From Candidatus Nanoarchaeia archaeon (GTDB taxonomy: Archaea > Nanobdellota > Nanobdellia > Jingweiarchaeales > Jingweiarchaeaceae), in assembly GCA_038874075.1 (NCBI GenBank), contig JAVZDD010000001.1:8701-72700 (forward strand): DNA of 64,000 nt, in the 5' to 3' direction. Positions 3,731 to 29,490 of this stretch are shown piece after piece. Positions within the stretch are counted from its first letter, which is position 1, and every line of letters starts with the position of its first letter. A model generated the notes under the pieces. It made no database searches, was not told the origin of the DNA, and saw nothing but the letters and a program-made list of their open reading frames with translations. The translations under genes and the position numbers were made by a program.

Positions 3731-3769
3731 ATTATTTATACAAAATTCTTAAATTATAAATTTATCTCA

Positions 3770-18500: not shown

Positions 18501-21105
18501 TGGTTCGTACTACCCGATGAGATTTTATGGGGAAGCGAAGGATGTCGCTGGCAATCCTTATTACATCGAATTTAATTTCTACAGACCTGGAAAAACAGAT
18601 CTACTTTTCAATGTCACAAGCAATCAAACAGGAATCTATGATAAGAACATTAGTGCTAGATTGTATGATATTGAAGTAAAAGCATTTGGAAATAAAATTA
18701 AGTTATATGGTACCAATCTGACAAAGTTCAACAATAGTGGTCTATACTCACCTTTAATATTGGATGATATTGCTGGTGCTTATATTGGCTATGGTGCACT
18801 TAGAGGATTATATGTTGATATAATAAACACAATTTATTACGTTAGTGGTAGTTTAATGATCGATTTTGCTGGAATACCCATCCATTCAATAAATTGGGTT
18901 GGAGTGTATAAGTGTAATAGCTTTGATAGATACAACAAAAAATGTAATCCTAGCGGTAATATTACAAATCCTTGGAATAGGATTGGTGGAGCAATCATTG
19001 GATATACAGCAAATATAAACTTGAGCTCATTTTCAGCATACGCTGCTGCTGAATATATTTGTGGAAATGGAATTTGTGAAAGTGGTACTGGTGAGAGTAG
19101 TGCAAATTGTCCAATTGATTGTCCAACCGAAGTTCCAACACCACCAGGTGGTGGTCCTGGAGCACCGGTGATACCAACACCAACAGTAAATCTAACAAAC
19201 ATCACAGAGGCACTTGTCAATATCACAGAGAAGATTGAGGAACTTATACCAATTCCATCAATGACTGTGATCACAAAATCAATATATGTTGTTTTGTATC
19301 CTGGTGAATATAAAATAGAGTCGATTGATATCACAAACAATTTGAATAGGAAGATAAAAGTAAATATTTCAGTCGAAGGTGCTGCATGGGAATTTGTACA
19401 ATTCGAGAAAACTGAATTCGAAATTGATCCGAGAAGAATTGAGACGATTAATATAAAATTGTATGCATTACCAACTGCACTACCTGGCATTTACACAGGT
19501 AAACTAATTGTTAAAACTGAAAACTTGACAAGCATCATTCCAATTACAATAAAAGTTGAGCTCGCAAGGGAAGCACTTCTTGATATCAAAATTGAGACAA
19601 TAACAAAGGTAATTAAACCAGACGAGCCACTACAATACCGTGTATCATTGTATAATATGGGTACTACAAAGAAGGTGGATGTAACGATAAATTACTCGAT
19701 TAGAAGTATTGAATTTAATAGAACAATATTGAGTCAGCAGGAAACACTAGCGATAGAGACTTCGCTCTCATTCAGAAGATCAATAAAACTACCAAACGAC
19801 ACAAAGCCTGGCAAATTCATCATAGAAGCAGTCGCGTATTATGACAATAGAACTGCAAGTTCCATCGACACATTTGATATTGCTGTAACTCCGTTCGTCG
19901 TTAATATATTCTGGCAGATTTTCACATCACCCTTCACTTATGCAATCATTGCAATTGTCATTGCGATTTATTATGGCAGAAAGTACTATTTGATGTGGCT
20001 CGCAAAGAAGAAGGCAGCAGCTAGATACATCTTCCCTGTTAGCTTCAATAAATTACCAAAGGCAGGTAGAAGATCCATACTCGTTGGTAAAATTGCTGAA
20101 ACAGAATATCCTGCTTATTTTGACATAGACAACCTGACAATGCACGTTGTAGATGCTGGAGGTACTGGTGCTGGAAAATCAGTTTCAGGAATGATAATTG
20201 CTGAAGAACTGTTGAAGAAGGGCATTCCTGTAATCGTATTTGATCCAACACTGCAATGGACTGGTTTTATAAAACCTTGTAGAGATAAGAAGATGCTGGA
20301 GAAATATCCAAAATTTGGATTAAAAACGAGTGATGCGAGGGCATTTCCAACGAACATAATTGTAGTCACAGACCCTGAGATGGATATTAACATAAAGGAA
20401 ATTGCAGCCAGGAAAGGTGAAATAACGGTGTTTTGTTTGAGTAAGCTCACGCCTGAGCAGTTGGATAAATTTGTAAGAAGGACGATAGATGCAATATTTG
20501 ATGTTAGTTGGAGTGAATCAAAGGAATTGAGATTATTAGTTGTTTACGATGAGGTGCATAGATTACTGCCGAAATACGGTGGAAAGGGTGGTTACACCGC
20601 GCTTGAGAGGGGATGTAGAGAATTTAGGAAATGGGGAATTGGATTGTTCATGATATCGCAGGTATTGATGGACTTTAGAGGAGCGATAAGGGCAAACATT
20701 GGGACGGAGATACAGCTAAGGACGAAATACGAAGGTGATATTGGAAGAGTGAAACAGAAATATGGTCCAGAGTATTCAGCAACACTTCCAAAATTAAGAA
20801 TAGGTAGTGCAATGGTGCAGAATCCGGATTACAACGATGGTAAACCTTATTTCATTGAATTTAGACCATTATTACATGATACATTCAGGATAACAAATGA
20901 AGAATTAGAAACGTATAAGAAATTACAAGAATCAATTAGTGAAATAGAGAAAAAAATTAAAGATTTGAAGGATAAAAAGATAGATACATATGATATAGAG
21001 ATAGAATTGGGACTTGCAAAAGAAAAATTGAAACAAGGTTTGACACATATGGCCGAAACTTATATTGAATCGATGAAAGAAAAATTAAAGCGTTTGGAGA
21101 AGTGA
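6517..21105 (+). CDS. Giant (4862 aa) glycosylation-sequon-rich surface protein. It has an N-terminal triple-TM anchor, a DUF2341/LamG-like head, tandem repeat modules, a penultimate TM helix and a C-terminal cytoplasmic HerA/FtsK-type (DUF87) ATPase domain with a coiled-coil tail
   Basis: Uninterrupted 14.6 kb ORF in an AT-rich genome where stop codons are frequent by chance; consistent codon usage; very high density of N-x-S/T sequons; repeated domain architecture; motif details listed in the sub-features below. Confidence 0.85.
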   Translation: MVNMKRDKAFYVVLVLVLFIFLSISFTNQMIAQILLLLVLSSFIFIRVNVIPNKKAISRVVLYLIVIIFFVFYQFYFSRLIDVVFAATVWNFVSPTPTNNTCTTQGPINATVIDGSPSLCKLYVSQNPGSGWSIHEMSLTLGSPNYCYNGTWWQSVSNGRWYYKVNMTDVNGVSSFSNGDYERTFVLDTANPSVTANPTKYPPGQTRAKNGDNVTFNVTVIDSTIAPCGVKNVTVHLSLGFNCTQGEILNLIKYGATDYYVGNCTVDATNEGTYYLPVYAYDNVDHLNDSVQVTVSVDYTPPTVTITSPTNTQYNTSSINLTFTANDNIASTMTCQRTLDGVTTLIGAVNNNTENTTIMNLEPGVHQVNVTCWDDAYNNGTSSTITFGVWRYIYANVTRNPEAPANLSRVPGCSIPTSITWNVTDIKDEFDNPINGTLLNVTWRGNTVWNGNIYTWWNKSWQRRKPITISNVNTSDLIDYQVVMNITYDNDMQSDFSDIRFTWYNKTSGVEVEIPYWIENKSDSNWVYVWVKIPIIYASSNTTIYVYYKNTTLVSSKSNGRDTFDLFDDWESGIVNTSYWTTGGSVSPYWITHTSTKYQGSYSSGNNDIGDLQISWIKKSINLLMPGKLEFYWSVSSESCCDFLYYCIDNDGCTRTSGYISRIAGTVGWTFVNYNLTAGTHSIKFAYEKDISVSYGSDTGWIDFVKVRKYVYPEPTSSIGTEEQIENLNLLPLSGVFDIPNDNVLGESDDFLNITITKPYYFAYTNNSSDYHIQGVLNQSGSLISWTPSGSAIDNFEPSIEGGPSVSASYLIRDDLSVTLTENTHYIKTNYGDWNASDNNAGDTIIPNTTFTGINNYCGTVTFSKSYLVHGKISDISSIIWSPSGNNIDRFYGGSYGGPDVSYGSLVVIDNKGNVVAPTNYSENKIGDWNASDNNAGDVIISNLNITSKLDAGSCGTLNCYWHGYVNQTKSYTVWANLTIKSVAPPNATIVYRSNCNTPYNVTLRVNLTDDKGNLVSGANTIIYHPSGTCSVNDENNGYYNCTYDPSDTIVPGLYTWTAEASKNYYYNTGNATLLYLEIRGCSNINITQPLNTSSFNRSQTMDIKVNITDEFNQPVSDVGVTCELTKANGVKVYPNCIYNLSSYLWEANYTFANDDPVGIWYLKVNVSGSYSYAEKIYEITLFGKLNVTSVLTKDKVDRGSDWGYGTIALLNASINDESGPVSDVYVKFYANDNFIGENTTDSSGIARLYWDPDDNLNVGAYKIEVEAYKTYYYNDTSKSLNNYTDVYGKLFVRNVSSPVNVDRKNNYGYGTIAILEVNVSDDLYVPINASTVEFYINTSVVGTNTSGVNGYYKYNWDPDNNLNPGIYVFYANARDVQYYHNYTDTVPNSTITVWGKLNITSFGFTDKEIYRIGESTVLSVNVSDENDVAVNNAIVSFVRDSSIINVTNTTNGYASYTYDPSDTITPNNYTMYVNVSKQYYYNDSKQDWLLIKGKINLTIISPNTGQKFYRNNTVQLNSNVTDENNVEVSPDWSEWKKIFPTQEVISNQPDYDWNIPYNYPKGLLSIQFNATKMYYDIVGAIPSVDITIWSKANVTILNSPQDLNRGNNITIVARVSDHFTNENLGGYDIGWFVNDVNIANYTTAPDGTSSYYWITNCSYDVGVNWINATIGNDTSNYIDANIANSKIDIHLIGNLSTSIISPHLDSLYHINDVIQLNSSTIDDCNNYVIPVVTWRNETDVIQSGINATWTIPLTYNKGPTNITIYANKSYYYNATNSTRIIIYRWVNITDLNPINVTYPVGTIINFTCFVRDANLSLGIENYPVNFYKNGVLQNVSYTNTSGLALWIWNTTNELSNNYTIKCNITDNATLYLNKSHPYEQQGNITIERRLWIINISVDNRTIYRNDTWAILNNLPYATNITVEVWDAAINPASNVIVHFFNSTNEMGNCTTNSDGKCSVIFNPPDTIIVQNYTILINATKIGNDPSFTENTTIEILGVLRINASNYPTGLDVNYENETIEATIEHDILITDVILNITLPNSTVISSQMQSMGNNNYVLNYTPKINGTHSYFVYAIDASNFLNQSSTAYFTAYRNTTLSTKHAPQLITITNMTYFNTQQLQVSLNVTNLGPSSAYYTNLSVQTPSGWISNYNGNCGLIKDGESCLRTVDITVPSNTSPGIYYLNSNTTWMNPDNTYSYITNVTTVNVTSNPLLNISQNSIGVVVQHNSYNITIFTVQSIGNDNLSNIQFDCYTGIVCTNFSVSFSPSSISFLGRGNSQDVNVNVSVPLGFAMGNYTGIIRANATSSVCNPSSNCWDEVEINIEVPPSSTWYAEEKNFSLARVNTSSTGFIGNITINNTGNTPIQFTWEAYGNISYMLIGENITVENQTVKNMTISYSIPHTLNDTNNTPAFYAGGIRIIAINGVPQSMNFSVNFSVYDTFAPNINNFSLDSNFIDINYGVLGITANVTDNVKVQSVYVEFSRPGKKFSNLMTNVYDDIYYYSCKADGSCIDALGIWNIKISTFDTANNPENPPPGYNVNSSGYLQVEVVGNTSVDILTIPVINVSNITQGYVYEFNITPIFNNTFKGTAFYSNLSLNISYPLTIDNVSTKTINFGNVSRYSAVNQTLLVKIPSGTVPGTYLINYNASWMNADNTHNSNINQTTINVLSNPLLNIVEDYILTTIAHGSSNATTFNLSSYGNDNLSNIEITCVSGTVCTNPCFDVLFDKNYLNLSAGNSSIVTVSVNVGLGCSPGNYTGIIRANATSSVCNPSSNCWDEVEINVSVLTSPTWGITPNYLSQIVYDNSSGNLIDILVNNTGNVQINLSITLSGNATTPTQLINVTETDVSVDKVSTKNVTVTYDIPNNQIPGIYQAIITFTNTSSPANPTQVNVTIYIDVRDPYSPTISNPNLSKTALEANFESLTINATITDNVAISEAWVNITLPNMSNNIIFMNNIGDNLYSTTYKPPIGGSYGVTIYANDTSNNIASMYAGSFNVIGKTTGNLKQTPTSISFNNITYLQGAQFDVHLNITNVGNTTMRYLNLTVLVPQDEYDCENGKCKWNFTCSGLNCNGSGISCGNLTINESCDGNFTIFVPKGTSGGTTNNIFGAAFWLDPDLTIGNTTNYTSVTVASNPVINVTPLVVSNSIEQGKISVLGSINISSYGNSPLYTMNYTSVGGNLPYAWLSFAPEIVNIPVGVRRNLDISVSVPFGQNPGIYNTTLIVNATGSAPFCDPSSSYYNPNSKCWEFVNLSLNVPENWSWSRYPSSDYIIVPITTSGQINITVNNTGNMDINFEVQYSGDTSILDPFRPTSLFSPKQSSNLLQVGYNGTISGLYNVLIKLVNLSIPSPYPKEQTTNITLNVTNVPPNIQNVSIAPSILDVNYQKVNISAVVTHPASSVYVWANITKPDNSITTIPMSGVGNTYSATYTPEQEGMYGVTIYANESRDGLMSSSGIYNFLAFATTSLELISIPNETAVYKITQYDGNITNLNITVRNTGMATAYNTVVSLQAPQGWTLIPTMINYGNITRNSANSTIVTITIPKGTPPGNYYVNLNLSWMNPNNVVSTVTSNVRFEVAQNPFANFTTKEASSVTLDGYSNYTILTLNSTGNIDATDISISCVSGPCSNLSTTISPPFISYLAIGNTRDINISFSVPVGYPAGTHVIGINAFTPINSDAANISITVPPNYSWNRTPSSIFARVGVSENYTTTEIGRIEVDNLGNIEMFFNITIDNSTYIYPNVTVLQVPRQSKGVVGVRTVVPSERGTHNATITIINNLTKEEMNTTVNLEVTELRVNVISPISNELRPVKLNDTLEVFANVTYQGVPLTDGVNWTIELSNAIYGITKQCDVNNATYQTDRWRITCIIPETRDATLYDLVVSAYAYDPSINTISSSTRTNAIFYEDITPPKFVGVNISSVQPNEIAVIKVNVTDNVAVSDAWVEIMYPNYSTTSANLTYIENLWQMSFNDTSQIGDYELKIYAKDNSNNLNQTYSWFGSYYPMRFYGEAKDVAGNPYYIEFNFYRPGKTDLLFNVTSNQTGIYDKNISARLYDIEVKAFGNKIKLYGTNLTKFNNSGLYSPLILDDIAGAYIGYGALRGLYVDIINTIYYVSGSLMIDFAGIPIHSINWVGVYKCNSFDRYNKKCNPSGNITNPWNRIGGAIIGYTANINLSSFSAYAAAEYICGNGICESGTGESSANCPIDCPTEVPTPPGGGPGAPVIPTPTVNLTNITEALVNITEKIEELIPIPSMTVITKSIYVVLYPGEYKIESIDITNNLNRKIKVNISVEGAAWEFVQFEKTEFEIDPRRIETINIKLYALPTALPGIYTGKLIVKTENLTSIIPITIKVELAREALLDIKIETITKVIKPDEPLQYRVSLYNMGTTKKVDVTINYSIRSIEFNRTILSQQETLAIETSLSFRRSIKLPNDTKPGKFIIEAVAYYDNRTASSIDTFDIAVTPFVVNIFWQIFTSPFTYAIIAIVIAIYYGRKYYLMWLAKKKAAARYIFPVSFNKLPKAGRRSILVGKIAETEYPAYFDIDNLTMHVVDAGGTGAGKSVSGMIIAEELLKKGIPVIVFDPTLQWTGFIKPCRDKKMLEKYPKFGLKTSDARAFPTNIIVVTDPEMDINIKEIAARKGEITVFCLSKLTPEQLDKFVRRTIDAIFDVSWSESKELRLLVVYDEVHRLLPKYGGKGGYTALERGCREFRKWGIGLFMISQVLMDFRGAIRANIGTEIQLRTKYEGDIGRVKQKYGPEYSATLPKLRIGSAMVQNPDYNDGKPYFIEFRPLLHDTFRITNEELETYKKLQESISEIEKKIKDLKDKKIDTYDIEIELGLAKEKLKQGLTHMAETYIESMKEKLKRLEK
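6544..6780 (+). other. N-terminal triple transmembrane anchor of the giant protein
   Basis: Three hydrophobic helices (FYVVLVLVLFIFLSISF; IAQILLLLVLSSFIFI; VVLYLIVIIFFVFYQFYF) separated by short basic loops; positive-inside rule places the following ~4400 aa outside. Confidence 0.6.
7870..8660 (+). other. DUF2341-like domain followed by LamG/concanavalin-like domain
   Basis: WWNKSWQRRKPITISN...DFSDIRFTWYNKTSGVEVEIPYWIENKSDSNWVYVWVKIPIIYASSNTTIYVYYKN matches the W-W-x-YR...DIRF...YWIE...VWVK...YVYYGN signature of DUF2341; the following ~150 aa has the LamG-like pattern usually paired with it. Confidence 0.55.
13393..13479 (+). repeat. 87-bp near-identical direct repeat, copy 1 (in-frame, encodes GNYTGIIRANATSSVCNPSSNCWDEVEIN)
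   Basis: ggtaattatactggaattataagggcgaatgcgacaagtagtgtttgtaatccaagtagtaattgttgggatgaagtggagataaat recurs at 14773 with one mismatch. Confidence 0.9.
14773..14859 (+). repeat. 87-bp near-identical direct repeat, copy 2
   Basis: One mismatch (acaag vs acgag) relative to 13393-13479; flanking sequence diverged. Confidence 0.9.
19061..19135 (+). other. Cys-rich knot module (CGNGICESGTGESSANCPIDCP) followed by a Pro/Gly/Thr linker
   Basis: Pattern C-G-N-G-x-C-E-x-G-x-x-E-x-x-x-x-C-P-x-D-C; the same pattern occurs three times in the Cys-rich protein at 54130-55269. Confidence 0.5.
19921..19980 (+). other. Penultimate transmembrane helix separating the extracellular region from the cytoplasmic ATPase domain
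   Basis: FTSPFTYAIIAIVIAIYYG followed by basic RKYYLMWLAKKKAAAR (positive-inside). Confidence 0.7.
20020..20880 (+). other. Cytoplasmic HerA/FtsK-superfamily P-loop ATPase domain (DUF87/AAA-like, related to VirB4/TrbE/CedB-type ATPases)
   Basis: Walker A VDAGGTGAGKS (20155-20181) followed by GIPVIVFDPTLQW; Walker B LLVVYDEVHRLLP (20534-20560); EFRKWGIGLFMISQ (the EGRK-G...SQ motif of DUF87); terminal PYFIEFRP beta-strand pattern. Confidence 0.8.
20881..21102 (+). other. C-terminal coiled-coil tail of the giant protein
   Basis: Heptad-like K/E-rich sequence NEELETYKKLQESISEIEKKIKDLKDKK...KEKLKRLEK. Confidence 0.5.
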
Positions 21106-21110
21106 TAAGG

Positions 21111-22532
21111 ATGGAATTAAATTTACCTTTTTTGAAGAGGGAGGAAAAGGGAGAAAGCGAAGAGGAGAAAAGGAAAGATAGGGATAATAATAAAAAGGAG
21201 GAGGAAAAGAAGAAGAAATTGACTGAAGCAAAGACTGTGGGTGAGATGGCTGCAATCTTGCAGGAAATTCCAGTGGAAGATGAGGAAGTGAAAGAGGAAG
21301 AGAAAAGGGAAGAAAAAGCTGGCATAGAAATTGATCCAAAGCAATTGTTTATAGAAATTGAAAAAATGAAGGTTGAGATTGATGGAATAAAAGAAGATAA
21401 GACAAGAATTGAGGAAAAAATTGATAGATTCGTTGAGAGTATTGGTGAGCTTAGAAGTCTGTTATCACAAAGGGAAGTGTCATTCAAGGAACAGGAAATA
21501 AAGCTCAATAAATTAGTTGAAATTGTGGGTGAAATAGACCCAACAAAGTATGGCGTAGAGCTAAAAAAAATTGAAAAGGATGTTTCTATTCTACAAGCAA
21601 GAATAGAAAAATTGGAAAGAATAAGTGTTGATTTAGTTAAAGACTTACAATCGCTACGGGATATCTTGGATAAAGTGAAGGACATCTCTACTATAATGGG
21701 AATGAATAGGGAATTAAGTGAAAAATTAGCGAAGATTGAGGATATTGGAAGTAAAGTGGAAAGAGATACAAATAAAGTTGAAAAAATGTACGCTGAAATT
21801 GATAAAAAAATTATGGATATACCGATGCTAAAAGAAAAAAATGAGAAGTTGGATGGACTTTTAAAGGAGCTTTTGATGAGTGTTGATGAAATTAAAATCA
21901 GATTAGATGCTTGTATAAGTAAAGATGACCTTGATTCATTAAGAGAAAGTATGAGGGAAGAAACGAGAGTACAAGTCGAAGATTTAAGGAAAGAGATTGA
22001 GGAAATGAAAATATCAAAACCTGTCGAAGAAAAAATCGAAGAGATTAAGAAATTTCCAAGTGAAAGTGAGATCGAGGAATTAAAGAGGGAGAGGGAAGAA
22101 ATAATCAGGTTTTTGAGCGCGCTTGAAGATGAATACAGGGAAGCCACAATCTCTGAGAAGAGTTATCAAGAAGCAAAAGAAAAAAACACGGTAAGATTGC
22201 ATCAAATTGAAAAGAGATTGAAGGAAATAAAGGAGATGGAAGAACAGATGGAAATTGAGAAGCAAATATTTACTGCGAAAAAAGCAATTGATGAGATAAA
22301 TCGGGTGAGTGAAGAGTTAAATAAGAAACTTACTGATATTGAGAAAAAATTAACAAGTGTTGATTTACTTGTATCTGACATCCAGAACATTAAAAATAAA
22401 TTAACGCAGTTGGAGGAAAGCGATAAAAAAATTATAAGTGATAGCACAGCATTATCAAATCAATTTAATCAAATAAAATCGATCTTTGAAAAAAGACTAA
22501 AAGAAATGTCAAAAATTGTGGAAGAGTTATAG
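21111..22532 (+). CDS. Long coiled-coil protein (E/K-rich), immediately downstream of the giant gene
   Basis: ~474 aa dominated by heptad-like E/K/L/I repeats, no TM; ATG at 21111 preferred over GTG at 21102 that overlaps the giant gene's stop. Confidence 0.6.
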   Translation: MELNLPFLKREEKGESEEEKRKDRDNNKKEEEKKKKLTEAKTVGEMAAILQEIPVEDEEVKEEEKREEKAGIEIDPKQLFIEIEKMKVEIDGIKEDKTRIEEKIDRFVESIGELRSLLSQREVSFKEQEIKLNKLVEIVGEIDPTKYGVELKKIEKDVSILQARIEKLERISVDLVKDLQSLRDILDKVKDISTIMGMNRELSEKLAKIEDIGSKVERDTNKVEKMYAEIDKKIMDIPMLKEKNEKLDGLLKELLMSVDEIKIRLDACISKDDLDSLRESMREETRVQVEDLRKEIEEMKISKPVEEKIEEIKKFPSESEIEELKREREEIIRFLSALEDEYREATISEKSYQEAKEKNTVRLHQIEKRLKEIKEMEEQMEIEKQIFTAKKAIDEINRVSEELNKKLTDIEKKLTSVDLLVSDIQNIKNKLTQLEESDKKIISDSTALSNQFNQIKSIFEKRLKEMSKIVEEL

Positions 22533-22541
22533 TGATTTTTA

Positions 22542-25500
22542 ATGCTAAGATCATGGAAAAGATTGGTTATATTAGCGATATGGTGCTTATTCTTAATTAG
22601 TTTTTCAAAGGCTGAATGGTGGAATACTTCATTTCATTACAGAGTACCAGTTAATATAAGTACTGGAAACTATAACAGGACTGAATGGCCGATTGAGATA
22701 AGAATAAACTTTACACAATTAATTTATGATCTAAAGGGTAGATATGAGATATTTGATAATAATTCTATTCGTGTCATAGAATATGATTCAGATGGTTATG
22801 TAATAAATGATAACAACGGACTTGGAATCGTCTCACAATTTGACGAAGATGAAGATTACGATGCAACTTATAATGCTGTTGGTGAATTGGTCTTTCTATT
22901 AAATGGAACAACACCTGCTAATACCACCAGGTACTTTTACATTTATTTTGATACAATGGAAAATCAAAAACAACCTCCAAGCTACCAGACAAATTTGACA
23001 TATGTGTGGGATGATGAAGAATTTAATGTGAATAACTCAATTTACAGACTTTGGATTGATACGCTTAGAAACGATAATACATCCGGAATATATAAAGTAA
23101 ATTTTACAGATGGTAGACTGCTCACCGAAATTGCGCCAAGCGGAAGAACGCTTGAGTATGTTAGTTATTGGAATTCAACAAACCAATTCATGTATAACCT
23201 TTCCCACCAAATGAAAATTTTGTATGCAGGACCGGTAAGAATTGTTGTAGAACAGTTGGGAAATGAATCACTTTGGAACTCTAATGTTCAAACAAACCAA
23301 ACAAAATTAAGGAAGAAGTATGTCTTCTATGAGAAAAATCAGTGGATAAGGATAAATGAAACATTAAGTAATGTGCATACGACAGATATAGATAGGTGTT
23401 CGAACGATCCAACATATATACCTGGTGCTCCTGGAACAAGTGATTATATATACGCACTTGCGATTGACGCGAGGAGAGGAAATTTCTATGGAAATGCATA
23501 CGTAATAAATGATTGGGTATCTGTCTTTAATTCAAGTACTGCTGTTGGTATGGGTGTAATACTTTTATATAATTCAACACCAAACTATTTTGTAGACTAT
23601 AGTGACACTTGGGGTAGGATTGGAGTACAGTTGGACAATACAACAATTCCAATTAATGAAAGCATTTCTTTCTCTGCTATTTTGTATTTTAATAACATTT
23701 CTTCGCATAGCCCAATTGAAGAATTGAGGAATAGAGTATTTGCTCCTGTTTCCATTTCAATGGGCAATGCAAGCGCATGGTATATAAACATCACAACGAT
23801 AACTAATCACGACGTTTACAATCGAAAAGAAATGGTAAGTATAATTGCAAATGTCACTTCTGATCCTTGGAACCTTGTAAACTATGTAAATGCTACGCTT
23901 GATTTAAATTCTCTTTTAATGCAACTTACTTATGCTGGATTTAAGTATTATACTGGTAATTACACGTTTGCAAACAACGATACGACGGGTGTTTGGAACA
24001 TTACAACAATTGCTTACGATTCATCTTGGCAATTTTTAAATCAATCTTCAAAATTGATAAACCTAACAGATATTTACAACATGAACTTGACGATAAGAAA
24101 CAAGTATGGACCGATCTCAAGAAAGTTGATTACTGATGTGGGTATAAAAAATTATAGAAATGATACAAACATTGTTGGTATTCCGCAGTCAAATTTCAGT
24201 TGTAATTTAACAATTTTAGAATTTTCTGAAATCGGAAATGGCTTATACAACCTAAATTTTACTGCTCCAATTGAAATCGGTAATTATACATTATTCTGTA
24301 ATATAAATTTCAACGGAAACGTTGGCAATTCAACTGACAGCTATATTACAGAAGAAAATAAGACGCAAGTGAGTATTGAACTTTTACCAGACAATATCAC
24401 AGCCACAAATATCACTTCAACGAATTCACAGATTTTTGAGATGAATTTAACAGCAATTAACCTCAGAAATGGTACGGCATACAAAGCTAACATCACGATT
24501 TCTCTACCAACAAATTGGAGTGCAACGCAAACATTTTTCAATTGTGGTGATATTGCACCGAGTAACAATTGCACTATATATTTCAATGTGACGATTCCAA
24601 GTAAGACCCATTCTGGAAATTATGTAGTAAATGCGACGATTGCTTGGATGAATCCTGATGGATCAATAAATCAAACGAGTGACTTTTCGAATGTAAATGT
24701 TACATCGAACATTACTCTCTATATTCCTGAAAATGAACTAATTGCAGTGGTTGAGCATGGGAGAAATATGCAGATTGGAAACTTTACCTTAAATTCGCTT
24801 GGCAATGATCCTGTATCAAATATTAGTTTTTCATATCAAATTGCTGAAAACATATCCATCATCTTCACACCAAGTGATATTTCTTATTTGGATTCTGGAG
24901 AATCTATTGTTGTATTTGTAAACGTTTCTGTTCCGGCTGGCTACGCACCTGGAAATTACATAGGAAACATCACAATAGATACCGAAAACGATGGAAGCAA
25001 AACATTGTTATTGAACATAGATGTGCCATTGAACAGAACTTGGACAAGGATCCCAAGCGCATGTTATAAATATATAGCTGCACCTGTGGGTTTTGCATGC
25101 AATATCACAATAAATAACACAGGAAACGCTGAATTAAATTTTACCATACATCCAAATGCGACTTCCGATTCAATGGTAAATCAAACATGGCCGAATGTGA
25201 CGAGCATCTTCTTAGAAAAACAGACTTCTTATGTGCTGCCAATCTTTTATAATATCACTGGATTAAACAATGGAACATTTCAAACGACATATACAATAAC
25301 AGCAAACCAATCGGATGCAATTCCACAAAATTTAACAACGATCGTTAATATCACAATTTCACTTGGTCCTGAAATAAACATCACAATTTATCCAAGTTTA
25401 ACAGAACAGATGAGTGATATCGTAATAAATGCGAGTTTATATGATAGGTCTTATACTGGGATATCTTGGGTAAAAATAAATGTGACGAGACCCAATGGAA

Positions 25501-27680
25501 CGATAGATACAACAGAAATGATCCTTGTGAATTCAAGTGGTGATTTCTCAAACTGGACGATCACATATCCCCATAACTGGGGTTCTACATTGTTGAGGGG
25601 AAGATATGATGTGATAGTATACTCAATGGACAACACGGGTGCAATTAACAATGTGACTGGAAACTTCACAATACATGCAAACTTATCGATAATAATGAGG
25701 ACTGGAGCTAGTTCATATTTCCAAGGCGAAAATGGCATTATAAGATACAATGTATACGACTCAAATCAAATACCACTACAAAATGTGAGTGTTTGGATAA
25801 ATATTACAGATCCTGAAGGTAATCGATTGCAAATAATACCTTCCTCTCCATATATCACAAATTCAAACGGTACACTGGATTATTTGCCTCAATTTGAAAT
25901 CACTTCGGATGCGAAGCCTGGAAATTATACTTTAAGTTCATATTCCTCATTCTTTGACCCCATCACAAACACAAGTACAAACAAGATGAATTCAACAATC
26001 TTCTTCGTTTATCCGGTGCTTAGTGCTGATTTCATCACTGTGATCAATTGGTTTCCCAACAATTTGATGCGTTTTATAATATCTACCTATGAAAGAGGCA
26101 TACCCGCTGATCCTGAACAAATGAATTTGGTTGTTTATGACCCAAATTTGGTTGTATATATAAATGCTTCTTCGCTCAATAACTTTACAAGAAGGAGTGT
26201 TGGGTCTTACATTTTTGCGTACATGATGCCATCAAGTCCACCATTGGGACAATACACTGCCTTTCTGAATGTATCAAAAGATGGATTCAGGATTGAGAAA
26301 ACAATTGTCTTCAACGTGGTTCAGGGTCCCCAGTTGATTTTGTATGATATCATATTGATGCTCTTAAAGTCAGAGGTAAATCAAAGTGAAAATCTACCCT
26401 TTGAACTCACGATCATAAACAAAGGTAATGTAAATCAAGATGTTTATGTTGATTATTGGATAAGTACGAGCCCTCTTGGGATACCTTGTAGCAATTGCTG
26501 GGTTGCAAAAAATGCAGATGTTGTATTTGTACCGGTAAATTCGAGTGTCACGTTAAGTAGAAGTGCACCAATTTATTCAACACAAGCTCCAGGTACTTAT
26601 TATTTAAACACAAATGTGACTTATGGAATCAATTTTACTGATTCAAAGACGATCCAACAATCAAAGAGTTTTATTGTTAGAGGAGCCCAGCCAACGAATG
26701 TAACACCAATTACGAACATTACACCTCTCTTGATCATTCCAAATCCAAGAATAAGCATCATTGGTTATCCATCAGTTATTGATATTGAGAAAGGATGGAC
26801 AAAATATGTAAGTGTTGAAATTAAGAATGTTGGTAATACAAATCTAAATAATATTTCACTTCAGATTGCCGGAATTCCTTTTTCATGGTTTGAAATAACA
26901 CCAAGCTTAATTGGCATCTTGTATCCAGAAAATTCAACCACATTTTTGATAAAAATTTCTCCTCCAAGTGATACTGAAACGGCTGAATTCAACGTTACAT
27001 TGATAGTCACATCTGACTTGGCAAGTGATAGTAAAAGATTTGTTTTGGGTGTTTTTTCCACTTTACAAGAGATGTTAAAGAGACAGATAAGTAGATTATG
27101 GGAACAATATAATCTGGTGAGGGGAAAAGCGGGTGTTGCTTCAAGCGAAGGAAAAAATGTTACTGCTGTACTTGATCTATTAAACCAGGCAAAGATGGCG
27201 CTTGAGAATGCTGAGAACTATTTGAACATGAAGATGTACGATGAATGCATCGCTTCGATTGGAAGAGCTAGAGATTTGATAGATAAGGCTGAGCAAGCAC
27301 TTTTAATTGCTCCTGTCATACGTGTCATTCCGGAGAAACCAGTTGAAGTATTACCAAACTGGATTCCATACATATTTTCGTTCTTGTCACTACTCATTTT
27401 AATTATTGTTTTAACGATGATCATATTTTATTTATTAAAGAGAAAAAGAGAGGAAGAGATAAGACCTAGCATTGAAGAGATAAAAAGGGTTAAGGAAGTG
27501 ATTGAAAGGGAACCAAAAGATATACTTGAGAGAAAAAGGGATGCGATCAAAGAAGCATTAAAAGTGATTGAAAGGGAGCATAGGATGGGTCTATTATCAA
27601 CTGAGAGTTATGGTGAATTGAAAAGAAAGAATGAGGAGAAGCTAGCAATTATTGAAAGAAAACTTAAAGGTGAATATTGA
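22542..27680 (+). CDS. Second giant surface protein (1712 aa) with signal peptide, N-terminal DUF2341-like domain, the shared A/B/C module, Ig-like repeats, a C-terminal TM helix and a cytoplasmic coiled-coil tail
   Basis: Signal peptide MLRSWKRLVILAIWCLFLISFSKA; WWNTSFHYRVPVNIS...EWPIEIRINF (DUF2341-like); N-x-S/T sequons throughout; module with TIAWMNPDGS and LGNDPVSNISF; TM WIPYIFSFLSLLILIIVLTMIIFYLL (27361-27440) then KRKREEE... coiled coil. Confidence 0.8.
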   Translation: MLRSWKRLVILAIWCLFLISFSKAEWWNTSFHYRVPVNISTGNYNRTEWPIEIRINFTQLIYDLKGRYEIFDNNSIRVIEYDSDGYVINDNNGLGIVSQFDEDEDYDATYNAVGELVFLLNGTTPANTTRYFYIYFDTMENQKQPPSYQTNLTYVWDDEEFNVNNSIYRLWIDTLRNDNTSGIYKVNFTDGRLLTEIAPSGRTLEYVSYWNSTNQFMYNLSHQMKILYAGPVRIVVEQLGNESLWNSNVQTNQTKLRKKYVFYEKNQWIRINETLSNVHTTDIDRCSNDPTYIPGAPGTSDYIYALAIDARRGNFYGNAYVINDWVSVFNSSTAVGMGVILLYNSTPNYFVDYSDTWGRIGVQLDNTTIPINESISFSAILYFNNISSHSPIEELRNRVFAPVSISMGNASAWYINITTITNHDVYNRKEMVSIIANVTSDPWNLVNYVNATLDLNSLLMQLTYAGFKYYTGNYTFANNDTTGVWNITTIAYDSSWQFLNQSSKLINLTDIYNMNLTIRNKYGPISRKLITDVGIKNYRNDTNIVGIPQSNFSCNLTILEFSEIGNGLYNLNFTAPIEIGNYTLFCNINFNGNVGNSTDSYITEENKTQVSIELLPDNITATNITSTNSQIFEMNLTAINLRNGTAYKANITISLPTNWSATQTFFNCGDIAPSNNCTIYFNVTIPSKTHSGNYVVNATIAWMNPDGSINQTSDFSNVNVTSNITLYIPENELIAVVEHGRNMQIGNFTLNSLGNDPVSNISFSYQIAENISIIFTPSDISYLDSGESIVVFVNVSVPAGYAPGNYIGNITIDTENDGSKTLLLNIDVPLNRTWTRIPSACYKYIAAPVGFACNITINNTGNAELNFTIHPNATSDSMVNQTWPNVTSIFLEKQTSYVLPIFYNITGLNNGTFQTTYTITANQSDAIPQNLTTIVNITISLGPEINITIYPSLTEQMSDIVINASLYDRSYTGISWVKINVTRPNGTIDTTEMILVNSSGDFSNWTITYPHNWGSTLLRGRYDVIVYSMDNTGAINNVTGNFTIHANLSIIMRTGASSYFQGENGIIRYNVYDSNQIPLQNVSVWINITDPEGNRLQIIPSSPYITNSNGTLDYLPQFEITSDAKPGNYTLSSYSSFFDPITNTSTNKMNSTIFFVYPVLSADFITVINWFPNNLMRFIISTYERGIPADPEQMNLVVYDPNLVVYINASSLNNFTRRSVGSYIFAYMMPSSPPLGQYTAFLNVSKDGFRIEKTIVFNVVQGPQLILYDIILMLLKSEVNQSENLPFELTIINKGNVNQDVYVDYWISTSPLGIPCSNCWVAKNADVVFVPVNSSVTLSRSAPIYSTQAPGTYYLNTNVTYGINFTDSKTIQQSKSFIVRGAQPTNVTPITNITPLLIIPNPRISIIGYPSVIDIEKGWTKYVSVEIKNVGNTNLNNISLQIAGIPFSWFEITPSLIGILYPENSTTFLIKISPPSDTETAEFNVTLIVTSDLASDSKRFVLGVFSTLQEMLKRQISRLWEQYNLVRGKAGVASSEGKNVTAVLDLLNQAKMALENAENYLNMKMYDECIASIGRARDLIDKAEQALLIAPVIRVIPEKPVEVLPNWIPYIFSFLSLLILIIVLTMIIFYLLKRKREEEIRPSIEEIKRVKEVIEREPKDILERKRDAIKEALKVIEREHRMGLLSTESYGELKRKNEEKLAIIERKLKGEY

Positions 27681-27693
27681 TTTAGGTGAGCAA

Positions 27694-28404
27694 ATGGTAA
27701 GGATAATAGGTGTGATATCTGGTAAGGGTGGAGTTGGTAAGACAACGGTCGTTGCTAATCTTGGACTAGCGCTTACTACAAAATTCAATAAAGAAGTGAT
27801 AATCATCGATTGTAACATTACAACATCTCATTTGGGTCTATACTTTGGTTTACATAGCGTGACAACGACATTAAACAATGTATTAAGGGGAGAAGCGATC
27901 ATTGAGGATGCAATTTATATGCATGAAAGTGGATTAAAAATCGTTCCTGCCTCTTTGGCAGCACATGATTTGATTGGTGTTGACATCATCATGCTTGAAA
28001 AAACATTGGAAAGATTATTCGGAAAGGCTGATTTTGTATTATTGGATTCTGCGCCTGGTCTTGGTAGGGAGGCATATGGTACAATAATTGCGAGCAAAGA
28101 AGTAATAATGGTCACGATTCCATATTCACCAGCAATAATTGATTTAATCAGATGTAATCAAGTGATCAAGGAGCTTGGTCCAAGGGCCCTTGGCATCGTA
28201 TTGAACATGGTCACTAGGGACAGATATGAGCTAACGGAGGAGGAAGTAAGTAATATCGTTGGGTTACCTGTGATCGGATCGATACCATATGATAAAAACA
28301 TACTGAAATCCCTTGCATTGAGAACACCTTTACTTAACTATAAACCAAAATCTAGAGCAAGTAAAGAGTTCATAAAACTTGCGAATAGGATTTTAGAACT
28401 ATAA
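27694..28404 (+). CDS. minD: MinD/ParA-family (SIMIBI) ATPase
   Basis: Deviant Walker A GKGGVGKTT near the N-terminus (MVRIIGVISGKGGVGKTTVVANLG), Walker B FVLLDSAPG; ATG at 27694 has a GGTGA Shine-Dalgarno-like motif 7 nt upstream, and the in-frame extension to 27652 overlaps the upstream gene. Confidence 0.85.
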   Translation: MVRIIGVISGKGGVGKTTVVANLGLALTTKFNKEVIIIDCNITTSHLGLYFGLHSVTTTLNNVLRGEAIIEDAIYMHESGLKIVPASLAAHDLIGVDIIMLEKTLERLFGKADFVLLDSAPGLGREAYGTIIASKEVIMVTIPYSPAIIDLIRCNQVIKELGPRALGIVLNMVTRDRYELTEEEVSNIVGLPVIGSIPYDKNILKSLALRTPLLNYKPKSRASKEFIKLANRILEL

Positions 28405-29490
28405 TCTCATTAATTCATCTTTTATTTTCTTTGCCTCATCTTCGAACATCTTCTGTAAGTTACTTACCTGTTCTCCTGTCTTTGAAATTTTTGTGTTTAA
28501 TTCATTTATTTTATCTGTGATCAATGTTATCTGCTGATTGAAATTCAAAATTTTCTCTTCATTTGCGGAGATCCTCTTGTTAATTTTGTCTATATCGTTT
28601 CCAAGTCTCTCAATTATTTCAGAAAACTTCTTGCCGTAATCCCTCATTTCGCTTTCCGTCTCCCCAATCTTCTGCACCGAAGCTTTTTGCTTCTCAATCG
28701 CCCCTTTCAATTCATCTATGTCCTTCCTTATGGAATCAAGCTGATCTGACACAAGTGAGAAATTAGATTGAAAATTCTTAAATAAATCTGCAATCTTTGC
28801 TTTACTCACTTCCTCTATGTGTTTTTGTAATTCTGTCTCAAATTTTGATGTCTCACTCTTCATTTCTTCTACTAATTTTTTTGCAATTGAAACTAATTCC
28901 TTCTCCACACGTTCCTTAACTGCATTCTTTATCCTTTCTTCCTTAAATTTGAAAATTTTTTTCAAATCCAATATTTCTTCATTTATTTTTTCAATTGCTC
29001 TTTTAGATTGTTTGGCTTCGTCTTGTAGTGTTGTGAGCGTCTCCTCAACCTTCAAAACTCTGTCCTGAACTTTTCTAATTTCTGTATGGGTATTTTTATA
29101 CTCATCGTCGCTTGCTTTCTTTATTTCGTTTATGAGCTTCTCTATATCTTCAAAACTTTTTTCTGTGGTAATTGCTTCTGGCTTTCTTTCTATTGGTATC
29201 ACTCCTTCTTGTTGTTGGACTTTCCTATTAAGAAGTTTTCTTGATATTGCATCAAGTTGGGAAGAAATTTGATTTATTTTTTCTGACTGCATGTTTGATG
29301 CATTTTTCAATTGTTGAATCTCTGGGAGTGAGGATAATGAATTCTCAATCTTCAATAATCTTTCATTCATCGCTGTTATTTGATTTCTTACTTCATCTAT
29401 CTCCTTCTGCCTCAAAGATTTTAACTTTCTCCTGAACTTCTCTTCTATTTTTTCATATTCCTTGATCCATTCTGGAATTTCTTCTTCCAT
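28399..29490 (-). CDS. Coiled-coil protein (E/K/Q-rich), convergent to minD
   Basis: 363 aa of near-continuous heptad-like repeat, no TM, no catalytic motif. Confidence 0.5.
   Translation of the reverse strand: MEEEIPEWIKEYEKIEEKFRRKLKSLRQKEIDEVRNQITAMNERLLKIENSLSSLPEIQQLKNASNMQSEKINQISSQLDAISRKLLNRKVQQQEGVIPIERKPEAITTEKSFEDIEKLINEIKKASDDEYKNTHTEIRKVQDRVLKVEETLTTLQDEAKQSKRAIEKINEEILDLKKIFKFKEERIKNAVKERVEKELVSIAKKLVEEMKSETSKFETELQKHIEEVSKAKIADLFKNFQSNFSLVSDQLDSIRKDIDELKGAIEKQKASVQKIGETESEMRDYGKKFSEIIERLGNDIDKINKRISANEEKILNFNQQITLITDKINELNTKISKTGEQVSNLQKMFEDEAKKIKDELMRL

What the first reader, a model, noticed from the sequence alone, without database searches (positions are those of the whole stretch)
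22542..27680. Second giant surface protein shares the DUF2341-like head and the A/B/C repeat module with the 4862-aa protein but carries a coiled-coil instead of an ATPase on the cytoplasmic side
Both proteins begin their extracellular portion with a W-W-N-x-S...YR-x-P-x-x-I segment (DUF2341-like; in protein 1 it is followed by DIRFTWYNKTSGVEVEIPYWIE...VWVKIP...YVYYKN and a LamG-like domain). Both contain the P-G-x-Y-Y-x-N...W-M-N-P-D module followed by G-N-D-x-L/V-S-N-I...G-N-Y-x-G. Protein 2 has one module copy, a C-terminal TM helix and a short cytoplasmic coiled coil that could pair with the coiled-coil tail of protein 1 or the intervening coiled-coil protein. This looks like a paralogous partner (hetero-oligomeric fibre or cap) rather than an independent adhesin.
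Basis: seen in the sequence. Interest (0 to 1): 0.6.

Follow-up and report, generated by a model that had tools for sequence, protein, structure and literature searches.

The report
Conserved partner of a giant archaeal surface protein
This 1712-residue membrane-anchored surface glycoprotein of a tiny symbiotic (DPANN) archaeon is a real, widely conserved partner gene of the neighbouring giant motor-anchored surface protein, which gives a concrete handle on how these cells may grip their hosts.

Summary
The ORF at 22542-27680 (+) is real and encodes a type I membrane glycoprotein, P2. The genome is Candidatus Jingweiarchaeum tengchongense (DPANN).

The shared repeat module is true homology. 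P2 has one B-C-D unit and the 4862-aa neighbour P1 has four (BLASTP 32% identity, E 5e-36).

The "DUF2341-like" head is a remote but specific relative of DUF2341 (HHalign 93%, E 4e-7; controls at most 5%). Pfam's own model does not detect it. In P1 the motif sits at residue 455, not at the start of the ectodomain.

The cytoplasmic tail is a conserved helix-turn-helix hairpin rather than a long coiled coil. It is homologous to a segment of the coiled-coil protein encoded between P1 and P2 (37.6 bits; shuffles at most 8.8).

The arrangement of P1-type HerA-anchored giant, coiled-coil protein and P2, often with MinD, recurs across DPANN phyla. It is seen in 5 of 6 contigs examined, and about two-thirds to three-quarters of species-level loci with enough upstream sequence carry the upstream genes.

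P1 matches the published "SPEARE" giant-protein architecture. I found no paper describing the P2 family or the shared hairpin.

The partner reading is well supported genetically. Physical assembly and function are inferred.

The parts
22542..27680 (+). P2 gene: 1712-aa type I membrane glycoprotein (the finding)
   Evidence: ORF. Identical to NCBI MCW1296998.1. About 70 full-length collinear homologues in DPANN archaea.
22542..22610 (+). Signal-peptide-like N-terminus (residues 1-23, MLRSWKRLVILAIWCLFLISFSKA)
   Evidence: Read from the sequence. This is the least conserved region of the family at 20% identity. A cleavage site was not predicted with any tool.
22611..22991 (+). Head domain 1 (residues 24-150): 'WWN' beta-sandwich, a remote DUF2341 relative
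   Evidence: HHalign against a DUF2341 alignment gives probability 92.8%, E 4e-7 over 98 columns; controls reach at most 5.2%. Pfam DUF2341 is not detected. It is the most conserved part of the family at 48.6% mean pairwise identity.
22992..23756 (+). Head domain 2 (residues 151-405): galactose-mutarotase-like beta-supersandwich
   Evidence: AF2 model of residues 24-430 has pLDDT 86.2 and pTM 0.87. Foldseek PDB hits are GH38 mannosidase 5kbp (E 5e-9), PL26 lyase 5xq3, the YidC periplasmic domain, GH36 enzymes and aldose epimerases.
23757..24386 (+). Residues 406-615: family-conserved segments (HMMs 430-556 and 558-614), including the 'A' segment that precedes the shared module; fold not modelled
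   Evidence: Family HMMs. BLASTP alignment with P1 starts at P2 residue 556-560.
24387..25361 (+). Shared module B-C-D (residues 616-940): NEW3/NPCBM_assoc-type domain with WMNPD, GND..SNI...GNY.G domain, and NNTGN domain
   Evidence: Pfam NPCBM_assoc scores 70.1 bits against a cutoff of 24.4, best stretch 633-702. BLASTP E 5e-36 to P1. One copy in P2, four in P1. Members of about 1950 aa have two copies.
25362..26741 (+). Stalk (residues 941-1400), conserved and collinear across the family; weak MG2-like match, fold not modelled
   Evidence: Sub-threshold Pfam MG2 match at 1067-1133. Family HMMs. Collinear in all homologues.
26742..27062 (+). Membrane-proximal NEW3-like beta-sandwich (residues 1401-1507), homologous to P1 4258-4366
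   Evidence: HMM hit on P1 at E 1.2e-7. AF2 gives a beta-sandwich with pLDDT about 96. Foldseek returns generic Ig-like linker domains.
27063..27311 (+). Extracellular juxtamembrane three-helix bundle (residues 1508-1590)
   Evidence: AF2 helices at 1508-1535, 1541-1562 and 1566-1588 with pLDDT 93-98. Conserved GKDVS motif. No counterpart was detected in P1.
27360..27449 (+). Transmembrane helix (residues 1607-1636), followed by KRKREEE
   Evidence: Hydropathy peak 3.06. AF2 helix. Present in nearly all family members.
27516..27665 (+). Cytoplasmic helix-turn-helix hairpin (residues 1659-1708) with motif L..(L/I)E.E...G(L/I)(I/L)S..(A/S)Y.ELK....KL
   Evidence: AF2 pLDDT about 90. Motif conserved across the family. 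Homologous to CC476 296-375. Weak sub-threshold GvpG and SHOCT matches.
6517..21105 (+). P1: 4862-aa giant with three N-terminal hydrophobic helices, an ectodomain of about 4380 aa, a C-terminal TM and a cytoplasmic HerA-clade ATPase
   Evidence: The C-terminal ~2000 aa are collinear at 34-39% identity with the giants next to P2 orthologues.
7876..8271 (+). P1 DUF2341 domain (residues 454-585)
   Evidence: Pfam PF10102 scores 57.6 bits against a cutoff of 23.4. It is the best site in P1 for the P2-head HMM.
12799..17880 (+). P1: four tandem copies of the B-C-D module (residues 2095-2436, 2543-2896, 2971-3361, 3462-3788)
   Evidence: hmmsearch with P2-family module HMMs. BLASTP.
19975..21102 (+). 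P1 cytoplasmic part: HerA/DUF87 ATPase plus a conserved C-terminal helical tail (KKIDTYDIEIEL...MAETYI)
   Evidence: Pfam DUF87 scores 44.7 bits and HerA_C 32.9 bits. PDB 8wiv 1.7e-9 and HerA 4d2i. Homologues are 47-69% identical. The tail is conserved among giants but unrelated to the P2 tail.
21102..22532 (+). CC476: 476-aa cytoplasmic coiled-coil protein. Its GTG start overlaps the P1 stop by 4 nt and it ends 9 nt before P2
   Evidence: Only generic coiled-coil matches. Orthologues of 470-766 aa sit next to the giant, between it and P2, in L001 and L004-L007.
21987..22226 (+). CC476 residues 296-375: copy of the P2-tail hairpin module (LSALEDEYREATISEKSYQEAKEKNTVRLHQIEKRL)
   Evidence: The P2-tail HMM scores 37.6 bits, E 5.4e-13. 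1000 shuffles reach at most 8.8 bits.
27694..28404 (+). Archaeal MinD-type ATPase, ATG 14 nt after the P2 stop and preceded by GGTGA
   Evidence: NCBIfam TIGR01969 scores 212.3 bits against a cutoff of 201.75. Start read. Exact protein in NCBI named 'cell division ATPase MinD'. MinD lies next to P2 orthologues in L001, L007 and 7 of 42 GTDB loci.

Best explanation
P2 is the second, shorter extracellular subunit of a conserved DPANN envelope system. The core of that system is a giant surface protein fused to a cytoplasmic HerA-type ATPase (P1, the 'SPEARE' architecture).

Shown:
- P2 is a Sec-type, N-glycosylation-rich, C-terminally anchored protein made of many beta-sandwich domains.
- Its membrane-distal head is a DUF2341-related sandwich followed by a galactose-mutarotase-like supersandwich. 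That fold serves as a carbohydrate-binding or accessory domain in glycosidases and lyases.
- It carries one copy of the B-C-D module that P1 carries four times, and the same type of membrane-proximal domain as P1.
- Its 50-residue cytoplasmic hairpin is homologous to hairpins repeated in the coiled-coil protein encoded between P1 and P2.
- The genes form a tight operon with an archaeal MinD, and the arrangement is conserved across DPANN phyla.

Inferred:
- The coiled-coil protein is a cytoplasmic scaffold that binds P2 tails through hairpin-hairpin packing. It ties them to the (probably hexameric) P1 ATPase.
- MinD places or organises the assembly at one membrane site.
- Outside the cell, the homologous modules of P1 and P2 pack side by side.
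- The conserved P2 head binds a glycan, or a conserved partner surface, during contact with the host cell.

What the ATPase moves (DNA, protein or only mechanical work) is unknown.
For: - Real gene and topology.
- Module homology: E 5e-36; four hits in P1, one in P2; membrane-proximal domain E 1.2e-7.
- Head: pLDDT 86.2; E 5e-9 to GH38, PL26, YidC-P1 and GH36 supersandwiches; DUF2341 probability 92.8% against controls at most 5.2%.
- Tail: conserved motif; hairpin, pLDDT about 90; 37.6 bits to CC476; 1-3 copies in each of the five orthologues; other coiled-coil proteins of the loci give no hit; shuffles at most 8.8 bits.
- Operon.
- Synteny: the giant, middle protein and P2 occur together in 5 of 6 contigs from different lineages. 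In GTDB species loci, 17 of 27 with at least 1.5 kb upstream carry the middle protein. Of 18 with at least 3 kb, 13 carry the middle protein and 14 the HerA ATPase.
- P1 ATPase is HerA-clade.
- The published SPEARE architecture is the same as P1's: PMC6642349, PMC10266531.
- The flanking genes are housekeeping genes and GC content is uniform, so this is chromosomal core, not a mobile element.
Against: - No experiment or complex prediction shows that P1, CC476 and P2 touch each other.
- About a quarter to a third of P2 orthologues have no giant or middle protein immediately upstream (for example L002, L013, L022, L046). P2 may therefore function without an adjacent partner.
- The tail profile does not match P1's own tail.
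- The head is the most conserved part of the family. That argues against host-specific recognition and is equally compatible with a structural or enzymatic role.
- Glycan binding is inferred from fold alone.
- The literature search covered only open-access papers.
Confidence: 0.6

Rival explanations
1. P2 is the main envelope (S-layer-like or sheath) glycoprotein of these archaea. On this reading it is a structural coat protein anchored by its C-terminal helix. It is co-transcribed with P1 only because both are surface proteins, and it does not form a specific complex with P1.
For: - It has a signal peptide, heavy sequon load, C-terminal anchor and a juxtamembrane helical bundle.
- It appears as a single copy per locus and is collinear across phyla with even 30-49% conservation. 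That is unlike fast-evolving adhesins.
- Some orthologues stand alone.
- An S_layer_C protein lies near the cluster in L007.
Against: - The conserved cytoplasmic hairpin shared with the operon's coiled-coil protein is hard to explain for a passive coat protein.
- Synteny with the giant and the middle protein holds in most lineages.
- No S-layer Pfam or NCBIfam family matches P2.
Confidence: 0.2
2. P2 is a surface-anchored carbohydrate-active enzyme or lectin acting on host or environmental glycans. It works independently of P1.
For: The best structural matches of the head are domains of GH38, GH36, PL26 and aldose epimerases. NEW3 domains are typical of glycosidase accessory regions.
Against: - No catalytic domain or family was detected by Pfam or NCBIfam.
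- The matched parts are supersandwich accessory domains, with TM-scores around 0.5 and sequence identity of 11% or less among the top hits.
- This reading does not explain the shared cytoplasmic hairpin or the synteny.
Confidence: 0.1
3. The resemblance between P1 and P2 is a compositional artefact of Asn/Thr/Ser/Ile-rich glycoprotein sequence, with no true homology.
For: Both proteins are about 11% Asn and carry more than 5 sequons per 100 residues.
Against: - BLASTP with composition adjustment gives E 5e-36 over 436 aligned positions.
- Profile hits fall in register four times in P1.
- HHalign controls between unrelated domains of the same composition give probability of at most 5.2%.
Confidence: 0.01
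4. The operon is an anti-virus defence or DNA-uptake system built around HerA, with P2 as a receptor or decoy.
For: The P1 ATPase matches HerA models of defence systems in PADLOC (53.3 bits). It also matches CedD, TraC and TraD weakly.
Against: - Only the generic HerA core matches.
- No SIR2, DUF4297, nuclease or Ced/Ted partner is present.
- P2, CC476 and MinD have no specific PADLOC hits; the only match is a generic MukB-like coiled-coil hit for CC476.
- The locus sits among housekeeping genes and is conserved across phyla rather than patchy.
Confidence: 0.08

Closest known systems
SPEARE giant proteins of Nanohaloarchaeota (Hamm et al. 2019, PMC6642349; re-analysed in PMC10266531)
   Same: P1 has the published architecture: a huge adhesion-domain ectodomain, a C-terminal TM, a cytoplasmic ATPase and a terminal coiled coil. 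Precomputed Pfam annotation lists ResIII on many homologues of P1's ATPase domain, and the Pfam scan of the domain gives a sub-threshold ResIII hit; that match would fit the original restriction-enzyme call. The cytoplasmic part is the most conserved. A giant from a Nanohaloarchaea-labelled MAG is 34% identical to P1 over about 1960 aa and sits next to a P2 orthologue.
   Different: P2 itself has no ATPase and is much shorter. Those papers do not describe a P2-type partner, the middle coiled-coil protein, or MinD linkage. In the cultured nanohaloarchaea the gene downstream of the giant is reported as a VirB4/TraG-like ATPase instead. Hamm et al. found no similar sequences in Parvarchaeota or Nanoarchaeota, whereas this genome is from that group. 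I did not align P1 directly with NAR1_1133.
DUF2341 (Pfam PF10102), often followed by LamG-type domains
   Same: P2 head domain 1 aligns over the whole domain, from WWNxSWxYR to the (F/Y)Y(I/V)Y(F/Y) strand, with an alignment of P1's DUF2341 and 20 DUF2341 proteins. Probability is 92.8% and E 4e-7.
   Different: Pfam's model finds it in none of 27 family heads and none of 10 other proteins carrying the domain. In P2 it is followed by a supersandwich rather than LamG.
NEW3/NPCBM_assoc (PF10633) and CARDB-type archaeal membrane-anchored surface proteins (JGI 'uncharacterized membrane protein'; Alph_Pro_TM-like C-termini)
   Same: P2 scores 70.1 bits on NPCBM_assoc and is annotated 'NEW3 domain-containing protein'. 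It is a stack of such sandwiches ending in a TM helix.
   Different: Those families describe single domains, not this collinear architecture of about 1700-2050 aa with its specific head, three-helix bundle and cytoplasmic hairpin.
SHOCT (PF09851/PF20612) and GvpG (PF05120) short helical motifs
   Same: The tail motif (E/D)G(L/I)IS..(A/S)Y.ELK at a helix-turn-helix resembles them. GvpG matches 15 of 31 family tails, SHOCT 6 and SHOCT_2 3.
   Different: All matches have weak E-values (best 4e-4 and 2e-3), and P2's own tail matches none of them. The module is longer and also occurs internally in the coiled-coil protein.
HerA/FtsK-VirB4 superfamily motors of secretion, conjugation and archaeal Ced DNA import
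   Same: P1's cytoplasmic domain is a HerA-clade P-loop ATPase placed directly after a TM helix.
   Different: No other type IV secretion or Ced component was detected. The CedD, TraC and TraD matches are 12-28 bits against cutoffs of 366-600. P2 has no counterpart in those systems.

Membership tests
DUF2341 (Pfam PF10102) | Match to the Pfam HMM at or above the gathering score (23.4 bits) | tested here: not met
   P2 gives no hit at E<=0.1. None of 27 family heads hits at E<=1. None of 10 other carriers of the domain hits at E<=0.1. P1 does meet it at 57.6 bits.
DUF2341 (Pfam PF10102) | Remote homology by profile-profile comparison over the whole domain | tested here: met
   HHalign probability 92.8%, E 4.1e-7, 98 columns. 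A second profile gives 91.6%. Nine control domains give at most 5.2%.
NEW3 / NPCBM_assoc (Pfam PF10633) | Match above the gathering score (24.4 bits) | tested here: met
   70.1 bits in three stretches, the best at 633-702.
SPEARE-type giant protein | Very long ectodomain (published examples 3315-9409 aa, plus short versions) with a C-terminal TM anchor | tested here: inconclusive
   P2 has the anchor and an ectodomain of 1580 aa. It is well below the sizes that define the group. P1 fits.
SPEARE-type giant protein | Conserved cytoplasmic ATPase domain (HerA/VirB4-like, originally read as ResIII) after the TM | tested here: not met
   The P2 cytoplasmic part is 76-77 aa with no P-loop and no ATPase family hit. 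P1 meets it.
SHOCT (PF09851) | Match to the Pfam model | tested here: inconclusive
   The P2 tail gives no hit. Six of 31 family tails hit weakly, best E 0.002.
Archaeal S-layer glycoprotein | Forms the 2-D lattice covering the cell; is the most abundant envelope protein | not testable with these tools
   No S-layer family match. Lattice formation and abundance need microscopy and proteomics.
Conserved P1-CC-P2 operon (defined here) | P2-type gene preceded on the same strand by the coiled-coil protein and the HerA-anchored giant | tested here: met
   Met in the window. Also seen in L001, L004, L006 and L007, in rearranged form in L005, and in 13-14 of 18 GTDB loci with at least 3 kb of upstream sequence.
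Archaeal MinD (NCBIfam TIGR01969), for the downstream gene | Score above the curated cutoff (201.75 bits) | tested here: met
   212.3 bits.

The most novel reading that the evidence does not exclude
P1, the coiled-coil protein, P2 and MinD form a previously unrecognised trans-envelope machine found across DPANN archaea. In it, a HerA-type motor is covalently fused to a giant extracellular arm. P2 is a second arm, tied to the motor through a cytoplasmic hairpin scaffold. ATP hydrolysis inside the symbiont would then be coupled to gripping, remodelling or transferring DNA or protein across the host cell surface.
Probability: 0.25. Interest if true: 0.85.

Novelty: new variant of a known kind. 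Interest (0 to 1): 0.6.

Why it matters
How DPANN archaea attach to and exploit their hosts is an open question. The giant SPEARE proteins are the main candidates, but they have been treated as lone proteins with disputed domain assignments.

This analysis shows that the giant is usually accompanied by a conserved second ectodomain protein and a cytoplasmic coiled-coil protein, often with MinD nearby. It also shows that the second ectodomain protein shares a cytoplasmic hairpin with the coiled-coil protein. Together these turn the giant into a defined multi-subunit system.

That gives specific, testable contacts (hairpin with hairpin, module with module), a candidate ligand-binding head, and a marker set for finding the system in genomes. 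If it is only a co-expressed coat protein, the result is still a useful annotation for several hundred 'hypothetical' or 'NEW3 domain' proteins.

Tried and rejected
- The search for related loci with family alignments A3 and A1 failed because no stretch was conserved enough. I replaced it with a degenerate DNA pattern for NGTT-x5-R-x-(F/Y)-Y-(I/V)-Y-(F/Y)-D.
- A sequence-profile search of the head against the PDB found nothing meaningful.
- The middle protein matched only designed or generic coiled coils in the PDB.
- The test that P1-type giants elsewhere carry the P2-type head was negative. Giants with 2-13 copies of head domain 1 had no HerA domain by my HMM. The visible C-terminal parts of the five orthologous giants had no head hit.
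- P1's conserved C-terminal helices are not related to the P2 tail.
- The second coiled-coil gene at 28399-29490 (-) has no detectable orthologue in the other loci and no hairpin hit.
- PADLOC gave only generic HerA and MukB-like hits.
- Rfam and the tRNA scan found only tRNA-Gly.
- The bacterial promoter and terminator scan is uninformative for an archaeon and was at or below shuffle level.
- The paper on the Nanobdella cell surface (PMC10882981) is not held.
- The MoxR/vWA 'secretion' neighbourhood of Makarova et al. 2015 is a different system.
Full report
**What is at the coordinates**

The window is chromosomal DNA of a DPANN archaeon.
- The flanking genes are Kae1, a DRG-type GTPase, a RIO/Bud32-type kinase, ribosomal proteins S15 and S3Ae, a GAN/RecJ-like DHH protein and CysRS.
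- GC content is even at about 0.31-0.40.
- The exact P2 and MinD proteins are in NCBI under Candidatus Jingweiarchaeum tengchongense, also labelled 'Parvarchaeota archaeon'.
- ORF 22542-27680 (+) encodes 1712 aa.

P2 is the third gene of a tightly packed same-strand series.
- P1 runs 6517-21105 and encodes 4862 aa.
- A 476-aa coiled-coil protein, CC476, runs 21102-22532 and overlaps the P1 stop by 4 nt.
- P2 starts 9 nt after the CC476 stop.
- An archaeal MinD has its ATG at 27694, 14 nt after the P2 stop, behind a GGTGA.

**Check of the observation**

- BLASTP with composition adjustment aligns P2 560-982 with P1 2048-2468 at 32% identity, E 5e-36. It also aligns P2 with two further P1 regions.
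- I built HMMs for each P2 segment from 28 family members. The B-C-D unit (P2 616-940) hits P1 four times in register, at 2095-2436, 2543-2896, 2971-3361 and 3462-3788. It hits P2 once.
- The membrane-proximal domain of P2 (1401-1530) matches P1 4258-4366 at E 1.2e-7.

Topology is as claimed.
- There is one strong hydrophobic segment (1603-1635) followed by KRKREEE, and an N-terminal signal-like segment.
- Sequons number 95 in the P2 ectodomain and 0 in its tail. In P1 they number 256 of 4383 ectodomain residues against 1 of 376 cytoplasmic residues (p 1.6e-8).

Two details in the finding are wrong.
- In P1 the WWN motif lies at residue 455, after about 370 residues of other ectodomain. It does not open the ectodomain.
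- P1 also has three N-terminal hydrophobic helices rather than a simple signal peptide.

**The head**

Pfam's DUF2341 model finds P1 at 57.6 bits. It finds neither P2 nor any of 27 family heads at E<=1. It also misses 10 other proteins that carry the same domain.

Profile-profile comparison does link the two.
- The P2-family head profile against P1 alone gives probability 80%, E 1.4e-5 over 70 columns.
- Against an alignment of P1 450-600 plus 20 DUF2341 proteins retrieved, it gives 92.8%, E 4.1e-7 over 98 columns. The alignment runs from WWNxSWxYR to the final (F/Y)Y(I/V)Y(F/Y) strand.
- Nine other beta-sandwich domains of P2, of identical composition, score at most 5.2%.

Head domain 1 is therefore a divergent relative of DUF2341, not a member by Pfam's criterion.

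An AlphaFold2 model of residues 24-430 is confident (pLDDT 86.2, pTM 0.87).
- Its second domain is a beta-supersandwich.
- The best PDB matches are GH38 alpha-mannosidases (E 5e-9), a PL26 lyase, the periplasmic domain of YidC, GH36 enzymes and aldose epimerases. This is the galactose-mutarotase-like fold.
- P1 instead has a LamG-type region after DUF2341. This is inferred from homologue P0217, which carries PF13385 and covers 96% of that region.

In a scan of 1.84 billion representative proteins, the head profile finds 1172 proteins at E<=1e-3 and 229 at E<=1e-30.
- About 90 have the whole head at the N-terminus of proteins of about 1700-2100 aa.
- Many others carry only domain 1, sometimes many times in proteins of 4000-6000 aa.
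- None of those has the HerA domain by my HMM.

**The C-terminal end**

An AlphaFold2 model of 1396-1712 (pLDDT 87.5) shows, in order:
- a beta-sandwich at 1404-1505;
- an extracellular three-helix bundle at 1508-1588 (pLDDT 93-98);
- the TM helix at 1607-1636;
- a low-confidence linker;
- a helix-turn-helix hairpin at 1659-1708 (pLDDT about 90).

The hairpin carries a motif conserved in nearly all family members: L..(L/I)E.E...G(L/I)(I/L)S..(A/S)Y.ELK....KL. It gives only weak, sub-threshold GvpG and SHOCT matches. So 'coiled coil' is better described as a short conserved hairpin.

**Link to the intervening protein**

The P2-family tail HMM hits CC476 at 296-375 with 37.6 bits, E 5.4e-13.
- 1000 global or block shuffles of CC476 reach at most 8.8 bits.
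- The same module occurs one to three times in each of the five orthologues of CC476 examined.
- It is absent from the other coiled-coil proteins in the same loci, including one of 1132 aa, and from P1.
- P1's own C-terminal helices (KKxDTYDIEIEL...MAETY) are strongly conserved among giants but unrelated to this hairpin.

**Family and synteny**

P2 has about 70 full-length, end-to-end collinear homologues at 26-39% identity, plus one at 78%.
- They come from MAGs labelled Aenigmarchaeota, Micrarchaeota/Anstonellales, Nanohaloarchaea and Parvarchaeota.
- Most are about 1950 aa because they have two copies of the module.

In six contigs from different lineages, five place the P2 orthologue next to a giant protein, with the orthologue of CC476 (470-766 aa) in between.
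- The giants are 4246, 12387, 4396, 7378 and 12172 aa.
- Their last ~2000 residues are collinear with P1 at 34-39% identity, including the ATPase.
- MinD is adjacent in two of the five.

A degenerate DNA pattern for a head motif found 61 loci in one-genome-per-species GTDB data. Nearly all are DPANN: Aenigmat-, Woese-, Pace-, Micr- and Nanohal-archaeota.
- 42 of them have the full P2-type head.
- Of the 27 with at least 1.5 kb visible upstream, 17 carry the middle protein on the same strand.
- Of the 18 with at least 3 kb visible, 13 carry the middle protein and 14 the HerA ATPase.
- A minority of orthologues stand alone.

**The neighbour P1 and what is known**

P1's cytoplasmic domain is a HerA-clade ATPase.
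- Pfam DUF87 scores 44.7 bits and HerA_C 32.9 bits. PDB matches are 8wiv at 1.7e-9 and Sulfolobus HerA 4d2i.
- Homologues are 47-69% identical, far more conserved than the ectodomains. Many carry a precomputed ResIII hit.

This is the architecture published for the nanohaloarchaeal SPEARE proteins.
- Hamm et al. described an extracellular bulk, a C-terminal TM and a conserved intracellular 'type III restriction' region. They found no relatives in Parvarchaeota or Nanoarchaeota (PMC6642349).
- A later paper re-read the domain as a VirB4/TraG-like ATPase followed by a coiled coil (PMC10266531).

Neither paper mentions a P2-type partner, the middle protein or MinD. Nor do the paper describing Jingweiarchaeales (PMC10134863) or the other DPANN papers searched. 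The search covers open-access papers only.

**How it most likely works**

- Shown: domain composition, homologies, predicted folds, operon structure and conservation.
- Inferred: CC476 is a cytoplasmic scaffold whose hairpins pack against P2's hairpin and connect it to the P1 motor. MinD organises the site. The homologous extracellular modules of P1 and P2 associate. The head binds a glycan or a conserved partner.

Head domain 1 is the most conserved part of the family, at 48.6% mean pairwise identity against 27-40% for the other ectodomain segments. That fits a conserved ligand or partner better than variable host-specific recognition.

**Rivals**

- A structural coat glycoprotein that is merely co-expressed is plausible, at about 0.2.
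- A surface enzyme or lectin acting alone is about 0.1.
- A HerA-based defence or DNA-uptake system is about 0.08. Only the generic HerA core matches.
- A compositional artefact is refuted.

**Verdict**

The 'paralogous partner' reading is well supported at the genetic level and is strengthened by a new link, the shared cytoplasmic hairpin. Physical assembly and function remain untested.

Relative to the literature I could search, this is a new variant of a known kind. It is a multi-gene version of the SPEARE-type giant surface protein system, with a conserved second ectodomain subunit.

Noticed in passing
window 55326-63671 (-): A third very large ORF (2781 aa) with Big_13, Big_3 and MAM-like Ig domains. 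It is not part of the P1-P2 operon and shares none of the family hits examined.
   Followed up: partly
window 28399-29490 (-): A second coiled-coil protein (363 aa), convergent with MinD. It has no orthologue in the other loci by BLASTP and does not carry the P2-tail hairpin.
   Followed up: partly
L055 (ORF residues 2241-2311 and 2527-2581), L024, L010, L044, L051: In other giant DPANN ORFs, the P2-type head domain 1 is split into N- and C-halves by an insertion of about 215 aa. This looks like a nested domain insertion. The same ORFs also carry intact copies.
   Followed up: no
proteins P0084, P0093, P0135, P0193 and others: Proteins of 4400-6200 aa carry 3-14 copies of head domain 1 but no HerA ATPase by my HMM. 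They appear to be a separate class of giant surface proteins built from the same module.
   Followed up: partly
L023, L063 (Promethearchaeota-labelled), L011, L044 (Methanosarcinales-labelled), L024 (Makaraimicrobium); P0344 (Patescibacteria-labelled): The head motif and the P1-type ATPase also turn up in MAGs labelled as non-DPANN archaea or bacteria. The cause could be mis-binning of DPANN contigs or real transfer; this was not resolved.
   Followed up: no
window 6517-6770 (P1 residues 1-85): P1 starts with three hydrophobic helices (about 9-27, 31-47, 59-78) rather than a cleavable signal peptide. Both ends of the giant ectodomain would therefore be membrane-anchored.
   Followed up: partly
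window 2897-3730 (-): A 277-aa ORF has a weak, sub-threshold match to the FlhB/YscU/SpaS export-gate family (20.4 bits against a cutoff of 24.4). This is unexpected in an archaeon and is probably a chance match to a membrane protein.
   Followed up: no
window 20957-22147 (-), 18837-19490 (-): Long antisense ORFs (396 and 217 aa) lie inside P1 and CC476. They are probably artefacts of the purine-rich coding strand, since GC skew reaches 0.42 there.
   Followed up: no
window 52194-54023 (+): A DUF2207 membrane protein (609 aa) lies between the housekeeping block and the 2781-aa ORF.
   Followed up: no
P0028, P0031 and P0203: Some P2-family members, and some other proteins that carry head domain 1, add a C-terminal zinc ribbon.
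   Followed up: no
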